A stretch of DNA of 64,000 nucleotides from Escherichia coli (GTDB lineage Bacteria; Pseudomonadota; Gammaproteobacteria; Enterobacterales; Enterobacteriaceae), in assembly GCF_002854065.1 (NCBI RefSeq), contig NZ_CP024147.1. The stretch is one strand, 5' to 3'. Shown here piece after piece: positions 19,401 to 22,400 of the stretch (the first letter of the stretch is position 1; each line of letters starts with the position of its first letter). The position numbers are program-made.

Positions 19401-22400
19401 TAAACCGTTTTATCGGGCGGGGTAATACGAGAGTGGACGGTCCTCTCGCCCCCTTGGGGAGAGGGTTAGGGTGAGGGGGCGTTCACCGTGCTTTCAACAG
19501 GTTAACTCCCCCTTTCTGAGAGGAAACAAAATTAACGCAGAATCTTCTTCTCAGCCAAATCCAGCGCAAAGTAGCTGAAAATCAGATCCGCACCCGCACG
19601 CTTAATCGAACCTAAGCTTTCGAGCACGACTTTCTCTTCATCTATAGCACCCGCCAGCGCGGCGAACTTAATCATCGCATACTCACCGCTCACCTGATAC
19701 GCGCCAATCGGCAATTCAGTACGTTCACGCAGCTCACGCACGATGTCGAGGTACGCTCCAGCAGGTTTAACCATCAGGCAGTCTGCGCCCTGGGCTTCAT
19801 CCAGCAGTGACTCACGAATCGCCTCACGACGGTTCATTGGGTTCATCTGATAGCTTTTGCGGTCGCCTTTTAATGCGCTTCCGGCAGCTTCACGGAACGG
19901 ACCATAAAAGGAGGAGGCGAACTTGGTCGAATACGACATAATCGCCGTATCTTTAAAGCCAGCAGCGTCCAGCGCCTGGCGAATCGCCTGTACCTGGCCA
20001 TCCATCGCGGCGGAAGGGGCGATGAAGTCTGCACCTGCAGCAGCTGCAACCACGGCTTGCTTGCCTAAATTTTCCAGAGTCGCGTCGTTGTCGACGCCAT
20101 GCTCGCACAGCACACCGCAGTGACCGTGAGAAGTGTATTCACAGAAGCAGGTGTCTGACATGACAATCATTTCTGGCACTGTCTGCTTGCAGATGCGCGA
20201 CATACGCGCCACCAGTCCATCTTCCCGCCAGGCATCGCTGCCGGTTTCATCGGTATGGTGAGAGATGCCGAAAGTCATCACGGAACGAATACCGGCGTTG
20301 GCGATGCGTTCAATTTCGCGTGCCAGATGTTTCTCTGGAATGCGCATCACGCCAGGCATGGCTTCAACGGCTTTGTAGTCGTCAATTTCTTCTTCAACAA
20401 AGATCGGCAACACCAGGTCGTTAAGGCTAAGTGTTGTCTCTTCAAACATAGCGCGCAGCGCAGGAGATTTGCGCAGGCGACGAGGGCGTTGGATTAAGTC
20501 TGTCATGGTCTGCCTGATGTTTGTGGAATTAAGGTGCACAGTATACCTGAAGCGGGGCAGGAGTGTTTTACGAAAGTTGTCACGATGTTGACAAGAAGAG
20601 AATGAAAGAGAGACCAGGGCATCTTTGTAATAGAAATAGCAATAACTTCATATTCACTGAAAATATTTTTTAATTTTTATTTATAGGTGCTGGTTATTAT
20701 TTTTGCCAATTTGGTTGAACTGTCAAAAATTGAATTACTTAAAGTTCATTGCTTATTGATACATTATTTGTCTGATTTGTTGTTTTGGTATTTTTAGGAT
20801 CTATAATTCAAAATTAATGATTTCATTAACGTGTTGAAATGCAGTGTTTTTGTCAACTTATTCTTTGTGCGTATAGATATTTTTATATATGTCCACAATC
20901 GGACTTAGGGGAAAGAATAATTGAACCATTCCTCTATAACGCCGCATAATCGTCAACGCGAAACATAAGATGTTTTCTATGCATTGATAATTGATGGATC
21001 AACTTATTACGTCCCTGAGGAGGGATGACAAATGCACTCCTGGAAAAAGAAACTTGTAGTATCACAATTAGCATTGGCTTGCACTCTGGCTATCACCTCT
21101 CAGGCTAATGCAGCGACCAACGATATTTCTGGTCAAACTTACAATACTTTCCATCACTACAACGACGCCACCTATGCTGATGACGTTTACTATGATGGTT
21201 ATGTAGGCTGGAACAACTATGCCGCTGATAGCTATTACAACGGCGATATCTACCCGGTCATTAATAACGCTACCGTTAACGGCGTGATTTCTACCTACTA
21301 TCTGGACGACGGTATTTCTACCAATACCAACGCCAATAGTCTGACAATCAAAAACAGCACTATTCACGGTATGATTACCTCTGAGTGCATGACTACTGAT
21401 TGTGCTGATGACCGTGCTACTGGTTATGTTTATGATCGTCTGACACTGAGCGTTGATAATTCAACGATCGATGACAACTACGAGCATTATACTTACAACG
21501 GTACCTATAATAATGCCGCTGACACTCATGTTGTAGATGTTTACGATATGGGTACTGCTATTACACTGGATCAGGAAGTTGATCTGTCCATCACTAATAA
21601 CTCTCATGTAGCAGGTATTACGCTGACTCAGGGTTATGAGTGGGAAGATATTGACGACAACACAGTCAGCACTGGCGTAAACAGCAGCGAAGTGTTTAAT
21701 AACACTATTACTGTTAAAGATTCTACTGTGACCTCTGGTTCATGGACTGATGAAGGTACTACTGGTTGGTTTGGCCATACTGGTAATGCCAGCAACTATA
21801 GCAACACGCTGACTGCAGACGATGTTGCAATTGCCGCAATCGCAAATCCGTATGCTGATAATGCGATGCAGACTACAGTAACTTTAGACAACTCAACACT
21901 GATGGGTGATGTTGTTTTCTCCAGTAATTTCGATGAAAACTTCTTCCCGCAAGGTGCTGACAGCTATCGCGATGCTGATGGTGATGTAGATACCAACGGT
22001 TGGGATGGCACAGACCGTATGGATGTGACTCTGAACAACGGCAGCAAGTGGGTTGGCGCTGCAATGTCTGTTCATATGGTTGATGAAGATGGTGATGGTT
22101 CTTACGACGGATATGCTGTTGGTACTGAAGCAACTGCAACTCTGCTCGATATTGCAGCTAACAGCCTGTGGCCTTCATCAACTGTCGGTGTTGATAACAT
22201 CAATACTCAATATGACGAAAATGGCCATATCGTAGGAAACGAAGTTTACCAGAGCGGTTTGTTTAATGTGACTTTGAACGGTGGTTCAGAGTGGGATACA
22301 ACAAAATCTTCTCTGATTGATACTTTAAGTATTAACAGCGGTTCCCAGGTTAATGTTGCAGACTCTCGTCTGATCTCTGACACTATCTCTCTGACTGGCG

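What the first reader, a model, noticed from the sequence alone, without database searches (positions are those of the whole stretch)
19430..19525. GC-rich palindromic element between tauD and hemB
The convergent tauD/hemB gap contains cctctcgcccccttggggagagg and a second partner ...ccccctttctgagagg, with G5/C5 runs. The pattern looks more like an intergenic repeat family member or a bidirectional terminator than a simple hairpin.
Basis: seen in the sequence. Interest (0 to 1): 0.2.

Follow-up and report, generated by a model that had tools for sequence, protein, structure and literature searches.

The report
Known BoxC triplex-motif repeat copy
The GC-rich palindrome between tauD and hemB is an already catalogued copy of BoxC, a short E. 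coli intergenic repeat of unknown function, and nothing found here suggests it acts as a transcription terminator.

Summary
Its left part (19435-19478, core 19443-19478) belongs to the E. coli BoxC repeat family, also called PIT or TMECO elements.

- **Family match:** a profile of the 22 published BoxC members hits it at E=1.6e-12, the only hit in the 64-kb window.
- **Already listed:** it differs by one base from published member eco:3_BoxC and from TMECO no. 5, which Holder et al. 2015 place between tauD and hemB.
- **Copy number:** similar sequence occurs at a median of 14 places per E. coli genome.

So "repeat family member" is correct.

"Bidirectional terminator" is not supported. There is no U-tract. 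Published work reports no terminator activity for the family. K-12 data show no mapped 3' end in the gap, but do show a Rho-dependent termination region about 165 nt beyond the element in the hemB direction.

The "second partner" (19508-19523) is no better than chance and is not conserved among alleles.

About a third of E. coli genomes carry an unrelated 39-bp hairpin gap instead. BoxC alleles also vary by 51-bp units and 6-bp deletions, which fits the reported instability of these loci.

Verdict: already known, low interest.

The parts
18574..19425 (+). tauD coding sequence (taurine dioxygenase), stop TAA at 19423-19425; context
   Evidence: ORF list; annotated tauD in the K-12 and O157 records at the matching position
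19426..19531 (.). 106-bp tauD-hemB intergenic gap, BoxC-bearing haplotype
   Evidence: 100% identical to O157:H7 genomes and 98.1% to K-12. 3598 genomes carry this haplotype and 1820 carry a non-homologous 39-bp one.
19435..19478 (+). BoxC element including its conserved left flank (GGACGGTC), G-rich strand on +
   Evidence: nhmmer with a profile of the 22 published BoxC members: E=1.6e-12, the only significant hit in the window. One mismatch to eco:3_BoxC.
19443..19452 (+). Pyrimidine block CTCTCGCCCC (K-12: CCCTCGCCCC; C->T at 19444)
   Evidence: Comparison with TMECO no. 5 in Table 1 of PMC4666352; register check
19453..19455 (+). Loop 1 (CTT)
19456..19465 (+). Purine block 1 GGGGAGAGGG. 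It pairs with the pyrimidine block: 8 Watson-Crick pairs, 1 G.T and 1 G.A
   Evidence: inverted repeat I4
19466..19468 (+). Loop 2 TTA, which defines 'type A' TMECO
19469..19478 (+). Purine block 2 GGGTGAGGGG, a mirror image of block 1. All 10 positions are compatible with purine-motif triads (G*G, A*A, T*A)
   Evidence: architecture as described in PMC4666352
19474..19513 (.). Imperfect hairpin AGGGGGCGTTCACC / GGTTAACTCCCCCT. It overlaps the end of BoxC, is kept in all BoxC haplotypes seen, and forms a perfect 9-bp outer stem where base 19480 is A
   Evidence: Inverted repeat I1; folds; allele alignments
19508..19523 (+).
   Evidence: Direct repeat D1, 13/16; no profile hit; shuffle test 33/500; replaced in the F2_81, FDAARGOS_944 and E1V33 alleles
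19532..20506 (-). hemB coding sequence (porphobilinogen synthase, 324 aa), stop at 19532-19534; context
   Evidence: Annotated as 975 nt in K-12; translation

Best explanation
Window 19435-19478 is the O157:H7 version of a catalogued copy of the E. coli BoxC repeat. The same family is called the PIT element (Hoyne/Maher) and TMECO (Holder et al. 2015); this copy is their no. 5, type A with mismatch.

It has three blocks: a pyrimidine block, a complementary purine block, and a second purine block that mirrors the first. The single G-rich strand can therefore fold back twice into a hairpin plus a third strand, an intrastrand purine-motif triplex. This has been shown in vitro for consensus oligonucleotides, not for this variant.

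The most likely reading is that it has no dedicated role in expressing tauD or hemB. It is a structure-prone, passively carried repeat. Its main consequence is local sequence instability (slippage, small deletions, unit duplications, whole-gap replacement) whenever the DNA is single-stranded.

- **Shown here:** family membership, copy number, allele polymorphism, lack of terminator features.
- **Taken from the literature:** triplex formation in vitro, absence of promoter or terminator activity, excess variability at such loci, Rho-dependent termination downstream in K-12.
- **Inferred:** that the structure itself causes the instability, and that the element is functionally neutral here.
For: - **Identity.** The profile of published BoxC members hits 19435-19478 at E=1.6e-12. 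There is one mismatch to eco:3_BoxC and 35/36 identity to TMECO no. 5, 'CCCTCGCCCCCTTGGGGAGAGGGTTAGGGTGAGGGG', 388,664-388,699, + strand. Supplementary Table S2 of that paper places no. 5 17 nt from tauD and 51 nt from hemB, "3' of tauA/B/C/D, 3' of hemB".
- **Copy number.** Median 14 places per genome (range 1-25) in 5400 of 5426 E. coli genomes, 11 in O157:H7 and 16 in K-12. The repeated part is query bases ~10-54. Only 23 of 68,796 places are on plasmids.
- **Architecture.** All ten third-strand positions fit purine-motif triads.
- **No terminator.**
- **Read-through.** A Rho termination region at 388,499 (-), Rho score 3.8, p=2e-9, lies antisense to tauD.
- **Instability at this locus.** Two non-homologous gap haplotypes: 3598 genomes with BoxC versus 1820 with a 39-bp hairpin. 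A 51-bp unit starting with the BoxC left end is present 0, 1 or 2 times, and 239 genomes carry it. Three different net 6-bp losses inside the BoxC core in GF4-3, FDAARGOS_944 and Escherichia sp. E1V33, two within a purine block and one across loop 2. This agrees with the excess variability Holder et al. report at TMECO loci.
Against: - No function or mode of spread is established for the family, so 'neutral and structure-prone' is a default rather than a demonstrated mechanism.
- In vivo DMS footprinting in K-12 did not detect a stable triplex.
- The window copy has an extra T.G in the duplex arm, and its triplex-forming ability is untested.
- The Rho and Term-seq data are from K-12 in LB or M63 glucose, where tauD is probably not induced, so nothing is known about termination of tauD transcripts.
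- Both haplotypes also occur in other Escherichia species: E. whittamii has the short one and E1V33 the BoxC one. The polymorphism is therefore old or exchanged by recombination, which could also reflect selection.
Confidence: 0.85

Rival explanations
1. The element, alone or with the downstream hairpin 19474-19513, is a bidirectional intrinsic terminator that ends both tauD and hemB transcripts in the convergent gap.
For: It lies between two convergent stop codons. GC-rich stems are predicted on both strands: -41.1 and -37.7 kcal/mol for the 113-nt gap as RNA. On the + strand the 19474-19513 stem is followed by UUUCU. The alternative 39-bp haplotype has a strong, evolutionarily maintained hairpin at the same place, with a compensatory T-A to A-T change in E. 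whittamii, so some structure at this gap may be selected.
Against: - The terminator scan finds nothing in the gap.
- No U-tract follows the stems on the hemB strand.
- Fold energies are only 1.3-2.1 sd better than shuffles.
- PIT elements showed no terminator activity in earlier experiments (cited in PMC4666352).
- No curated Term-seq 3' end lies at 388,400-388,799 in three conditions.
- Minus-strand transcription continues past the element and is Rho-terminated about 165 nt downstream.
- The UUUCU tail is absent in the F2_81, FDAARGOS_944 and E1V33 alleles.
Confidence: 0.06
2. The C-rich transcript of the element (hemB strand: CCCCCUCACCCUAACCCUCUCCCC) acts as part of a Rho loading (rut) site, so the BoxC haplotype ends hemB transcription through Rho.
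For: There is a 24-nt G-free, C-rich run on the hemB strand. A Rho termination region lies about 165 nt downstream in K-12.
Against: Across the minus-strand Rho table for 0.14-1.1 Mb and 3.27-4.10 Mb, only 1 of 10 TMECOs whose C-rich strand is transcribed in that direction has a Rho region within 500 nt downstream. For TMECOs presenting the G-rich strand the figure is 2 of 6. There is thus no orientation-specific association. Antisense transcription into a convergent gene is commonly Rho-terminated anyway. The free C-rich stretch is short for a rut site.
Confidence: 0.04
3. The gap holds two BoxC elements, as in the five paired K-12 loci: an intact one at 19443-19478 and a decayed second one around 19505-19525.
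For: Five of 18 K-12 loci hold two TMECOs close together. The second partner starts 29 nt after the first element, similar to the 26-nt spacing of pair 7+8. Its best match is 14/17 to a type B member.
Against: There is no profile hit on either strand at E<=10. The match is equalled in 33 of 500 shuffles. It is in direct rather than inverted orientation, unlike all five known pairs. The segment reads CCCCCAACCGGAAGGCG in F2_81 and CCCCCCACCGGAAGGCG in E1V33.
Confidence: 0.08
4. It is a chance single-copy GC-rich palindrome, or a member of another enterobacterial repeat family (REP/BIME).
For: None beyond GC-richness and dyad symmetry.
Against: It is multi-copy, with a family E-value of 1.6e-12. 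The REP consensus with up to 3 mismatches matches only at 3057-3292 in the window, not in this gap. There is no Rfam match.
Confidence: 0.01

Closest known systems
BoxC repeat of E. coli (Bachellier et al.; 56 bp, about 32 copies), also known as PIT elements (Hoyne & Maher 2000/2002) and TMECO (Holder et al. 2015, NAR 43:10126, PMC4666352)
   Same: The sequence differs by one base from the published K-12 copy at this very locus. It shares the three-block architecture, the type A loop, the intergenic location and the multi-copy distribution.
   Different: The only difference is a lineage-specific C->T at 19444, which adds a G.T to the hairpin arm. Holder et al. would class this as a 'mutated' TMECO.
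REP/BIME (PU) elements
   Same: Both are short, GC-rich, imperfectly palindromic, multi-copy intergenic repeats of enterobacteria, often found at gene 3' ends.
   Different: The consensus is different. REP has a known mobilising transposase (RAYT) and known protein partners (established knowledge); BoxC has neither. REP lacks the third mirror-repeat block.
Rho-independent (intrinsic) terminators
   Same: A GC-rich stem-loop located after a stop codon.
   Different: There is no U-tract, no mapped 3' end, and no terminator activity reported for the family.
H-DNA / mirror-repeat triplex-forming sequences
   Same: Mirror-symmetric purine blocks able to form G*G:C triads, and an association with genetic instability.
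   Different: BoxC is proposed to fold within a single strand (a double fold-back) rather than as H-DNA in supercoiled duplex. It is a dispersed repeat family rather than a simple polypurine tract.

Membership tests
BoxC / PIT / TMECO | Sequence match to the family consensus | tested here: met
   nhmmer with a profile of the 22 published members: 43.5 bits, E=1.6e-12, 19435-19478. 35/36 identity to TMECO no. 5 and 42/43 to eco:3_BoxC.
BoxC / PIT / TMECO | Three blocks: pyrimidine block, complementary purine block, then a mirror-repeat purine block, separated by short loops | tested here: met
   CTCTCGCCCC-CTT-GGGGAGAGGG-TTA-GGGTGAGGGG. Eight Watson-Crick pairs plus one G.T and one G.A in the duplex arm; 10/10 positions compatible with triads.
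BoxC / PIT / TMECO | Subtype defined by loop 2 (TTA = type A, CCG = type B) | tested here: met
   TTA at 19466-19468, so type A; the G.A mismatch makes it 'A mm', as listed for no. 5.
BoxC / PIT / TMECO | Multi-copy, dispersed and intergenic in E. coli chromosomes | tested here: met
   Median 14 places per genome, 11 in O157:H7 records, 68,773 of 68,796 places on chromosomes, and no annotated feature under the matches.
BoxC / PIT / TMECO | [quoted passage not shown] | not testable with these tools
   Shown by CD and NMR for consensus type A/B oligonucleotides. The window variant with C->T at 19444 has not been measured, and nearest-neighbour folding cannot score Hoogsteen pairs.
Intrinsic (Rho-independent) terminator | GC-rich stem-loop immediately followed by a U-rich tract | tested here: not met
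   No site in the gap on either strand in the terminator scan; the tails after the stems are GUUAGGG / CACCCUAA.
Intrinsic (Rho-independent) terminator | A discrete RNA 3' end at the base of the stem in vivo | tested here: not met
   The K-12 Term-seq tables (PMC7815308, supplementary file 1) hold no 3' end at 388,400-388,799. Caveat: these are K-12 data under conditions that probably do not induce tauD.
REP / BIME | Match to the REP consensus GCCKGATGCGRCGY(N4)RCGYCTTATCMGGCCTAC | tested here: not met
   With up to 3 mismatches the only matches are at 3057-3292; there are none in 19426-19531.

The most novel reading that the evidence does not exclude
BoxC copies may be generated at pre-existing terminator-like hairpins, not inserted as whole units. 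About 14-19 nt after the tauD stop codon, different genera carry what look like stages of one series built on the same palindromic core (CCTCTCC...GGAGAGG):
- Trabulsiella has the plain hairpin.
- Escherichia has the three-block BoxC with the extra block 3' of the hairpin.
- Leclercia and Silvania have BoxC with the extra block 5' of the hairpin (opposite orientation), next to a different downstream gene.

A Citrobacter sp. also has a two-block hairpin, but it lies further into its tauD-hemB gap. Because the hairpin core reads the same on both strands, recombination or gene conversion with other copies could add the third block on either side. This would explain how a repeat with no known transposase spreads and why it occurs in both orientations.
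Probability: 0.08. Interest if true: 0.45.

Novelty: already known. Interest (0 to 1): 0.08.

Why it matters
It matters little for this locus. The element is a textbook-listed repeat, and this copy is already tabulated (TMECO no. 5).

The practical value is negative.

The wider open question is what BoxC elements do and how they spread. It remains unsolved after about 30 years. This locus could serve as a natural test case for it:
- Two old haplotypes exist, BoxC versus a simple hairpin.
- The 51-bp unit varies in copy number.
- The core has suffered recurrent net 6-bp losses.

Tried and rejected
- **Rfam scan** of 19000-20000 at E<=10: only a meaningless lncRNA match at E=7.
- **Terminator and promoter scans** of the window region and of the short allele: nothing in either gap.
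- **Second partner as a decayed BoxC:** no profile hit and a non-significant shuffle test; not conserved among alleles.
- **BoxC C-rich strand as a Rho loading site:** I compared published TMECO positions with the minus-strand Rho termination regions of PMC7815308, parts 6 and 9 only. 1 of 10 C-rich-oriented copies and 2 of 6 G-rich-oriented copies have a region within 500 nt, so there is no orientation effect. The plus-strand half and parts 7, 8 and 10 were not read because of the look-up cap.
- **Origin of the 51-bp insert:** I looked for a donor at another BoxC locus. All 239 genomes carry it only at tauD-hemB, and the two divergent hits I fetched were also at this gap, so no donor was found. 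It is a locally duplicated unit.
- **Other 3'-end datasets** (PMC6061677, PMC9023263): no supplementary tables are held.
- **REP consensus:** absent from the gap.
- **Literature after 2015** on TMECO or intrastrand triplex repeats: no new functional study found.

Full report
**1. Observation**

The window is E. coli; the gap is 100% identical to O157:H7 genomes and 98.1% to K-12. tauD (18574-19425, +) and hemB (19532-20506, -) converge on a 106-bp gap.

- The string cctctcgcccccttggggagagg is at 19442-19464, and ccccctttctgagagg is at 19508-19523.
- The C5 and G5 runs are present.
- Watson-Crick folding of the gap or its parts, as RNA or DNA on either strand, is only 1.1-2.1 sd better than dinucleotide shuffles.
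- No terminator-like site is found in the gap, and Rfam has nothing.

**2. What it is**

blastn of the gap against 5,426 complete E. coli genomes finds 68,796 places. The median is 14 per genome (range 1-25), with 11 in O157:H7 and 16 in K-12. The repeated part is gap bases ~10-54, which is window 19435-19479.

The literature identifies this as the BoxC family: 56 bp and about 32 copies in the original description, or 22 copies of about 50 bp by HMM in PMC2267715.

- The published member list contains eco:3_BoxC, which is the reverse complement of window 19437-19479 with one mismatch.
- A profile built from those 22 members hits 19435-19478 at E=1.6e-12. It hits nothing else significant in the 64 kb.
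- Holder et al. 2015 (PMC4666352) renamed the family TMECO. Their Table 1 lists no. 5, CCCTCGCCCCCTTGGGGAGAGGGTTAGGGTGAGGGG, type 'A mm', at 388,664-388,699 on the + strand.
- Their Supplementary Table S2 places it 17 nt from tauD and 51 nt from hemB.

The window copy occupies 19443-19478 and differs by one C->T at 19444.

Its architecture is a pyrimidine block, loop CTT, a purine block, loop TTA, and a mirror purine block. The duplex arm has 8 Watson-Crick pairs, one G.T (specific to this lineage) and the family-typical G.A. All ten third-strand positions fit purine-motif triads.

**3. What is known about how it behaves (from PMC4666352)**

- Consensus oligonucleotides form very stable intrastrand triplexes in vitro (Tm 70-82 C by CD and NMR).
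- The duplex form dominates when the complementary strand is present. In vivo DMS footprinting did not show a stable triplex.
- Earlier work by Hoyne and Maher found polymerase blockage in vitro, but no promoter or terminator activity and no effect in vivo.
- Copies are always intergenic, show no link to gene class, and are not associated with mobile elements.
- TMECO loci are much more variable between E. coli strains than control intergenic regions.

**4. Terminator hypothesis**

Canonical features are absent, and the family tested negative.

In the K-12 3'-end data of Adams et al. 2021 (PMC7815308), no curated Term-seq 3' end lies at 388,400-388,799 in LB at OD 0.4, LB at OD 2.0, or M63 glucose. 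Their bicyclomycin experiment reports a Rho termination region at 388,499 on the minus strand, antisense to tauD, with Rho score 3.8 and p=2e-9. That is about 165 nt beyond the element in the hemB direction. The most likely reading is that hemB transcription reads through the element and is stopped by Rho inside antisense tauD.

I then asked whether the C-rich transcript of BoxC might be a Rho loading site in general. Using the parts of the Rho table I could read, 1 of 10 C-rich-oriented TMECOs has a Rho region within 500 nt downstream, against 2 of 6 G-rich-oriented ones. There is no orientation effect, so I rejected this.

**5. The 'second partner'**

- There is no BoxC profile hit on either strand at E<=10 with filters off.
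- The best local match to any member is 14/17, equalled by 33 of 500 shuffles and 6% of natural 53-mers.
- In other BoxC haplotypes the segment is different...CCCCCAACCGGAAGGCG... in F2_81, with close variants in FDAARGOS_944 and Escherichia sp. E1V33.

What is conserved in BoxC haplotypes is the hairpin GGGGG(A/C)GTT...AACTCCCCC (window 19474-19513). It has no U-tract on the hemB strand.

**6. Variation at this locus (new here, but in line with the published pattern)**

All E. coli genomes keep tauD and hemB adjacent, but the gap comes in two non-homologous forms.

- **BoxC form:** 3598 genomes.
- **39-bp form:** 1820 genomes. It consists of a perfect hairpin, ATGCCGGGTT-GGAT-AACCCGGCAT, with DNA fold z of about -6.

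Within BoxC forms I saw two further kinds of change.

- A 51-bp unit that begins with the BoxC left flank and first bases is present 0 times (window, K-12), once (AB66, 23CRST022, F2_81; 239 genomes carry it) or twice (FDAARGOS_944, E1V33).
- Three different net 6-bp losses hit the BoxC core: across loop 2 in GF4-3, in purine block 1 in FDAARGOS_944, and in purine block 2 in E1V33. The runs of G around them fit replication slippage.

A scan of one genome per species with a tauD C-terminus pattern returned 14 loci, analysed.

- E. whittamii has the short hairpin form. It carries a compensatory T-A to A-T change in the stem.
- Escherichia sp. E1V33 has the BoxC form, so both haplotypes extend beyond E. 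coli.
- Citrobacter werkmanii and C. youngae have a REP-like element in the gap.
- Another Citrobacter has a two-block CCCTCTCC/GGGAGAGGG hairpin with no third block.
- Trabulsiella has a plain CCTCTCC/GGAGAGG hairpin after tauD.
- Leclercia and Silvania have BoxC directly after tauD in the opposite orientation, with a different downstream gene.

**7. Comparison and verdict**

Every sequence-level defining feature of BoxC/PIT/TMECO is met. The biophysical feature (triplex formation) cannot be tested here. The defining features of an intrinsic terminator and of REP are not met.

The finding is an already known element at an already published position. The terminator reading and the paired second element are not supported.

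The only mildly novel thread is the cross-genus series of hairpin, two-block and three-block states after tauD. It suggests BoxC may grow out of existing hairpins. I rate that at about 8%, and it is untested.

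Noticed in passing
window 19426-19531 versus L002 251-289 (E. coli AR_0372) and L022 (E. 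whittamii): The tauD-hemB gap exists as two non-homologous haplotypes. The 106-bp BoxC form is in 3598 genomes. A 39-bp form made of a perfect hairpin, ATGCCGGGTT-GGAT-AACCCGGCAT, is in 1820 genomes. E. whittamii has the short form with a compensatory T-A to A-T change in the stem, which suggests that hairpin is under selection.
   Followed up: partly
L003 260-310, L007 ~400-450, L008 ~400-500, L017 (gap after tauD): A 51-bp unit (GGACGGTCCCCTTGAGCGGCGAAAGAACGTTGATATAGATGAAGCGAGTGC) starts with the BoxC left flank. It is present 0, 1 or 2 times in tandem, immediately left of the BoxC, in different strains. 239 E. coli genomes carry it, always at this gap in the loci I fetched. No donor locus was found.
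   Followed up: yes
L004 (GF4-3), L008 (FDAARGOS_944), L017 (Escherichia sp. E1V33): BoxC cores: Three different net 6-bp losses affect the BoxC core in three lineages: across loop 2, within purine block 1 and within purine block 2. All lie among runs of G. Each would impair the potential triplex but leave at least part of a hairpin.
   Followed up: partly
L018 (Leclercia sp.), L021 (Silvania confinis), L012/L015 (Trabulsiella), L020/L016 (Citrobacter sp.): In Leclercia, Silvania and Trabulsiella a hairpin with the BoxC core arms (CCTCTCC/GGAGAGG) sits about 14-19 nt after the tauD stop. It is a plain hairpin in Trabulsiella. In Leclercia (three copies) and Silvania it is a full BoxC in the opposite orientation to E. 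coli, next to a different gene. Citrobacter sp. has a two-block hairpin further into its tauD-hemB gap.
   Followed up: partly
K-12 coordinate 388,499 minus strand; corresponds to about window 19278, antisense to tauD: Published DirectRNA-seq with and without bicyclomycin (PMC7815308, supplementary file 2) reports a Rho termination region antisense to the 3' part of tauD. hemB read-through is the probable source of this transcription.
   Followed up: partly
window 3057-3292, minus strand: Three perfect matches to the REP consensus at about 100-bp spacing, all on the same strand. This looks like a REP/BIME cluster unrelated to the finding.
   Followed up: no
L016 (CACSKA010000001.1, titled Chryseobacterium sp. 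18061): This contig carries an enterobacterial tauD-hemB locus nearly identical to that of Citrobacter sp. 18056, from the same study; its HemB is 94% identical to E. coli. The record looks mislabelled or contaminated.
   Followed up: no
window 19423-19425 and the same position in L003-L006: The tauD stop codon is polymorphic: TAA in the window, K-12, F2_81 and the short allele; TGA in AB66, S42, GF4-3 and 23CRST022.
   Followed up: no
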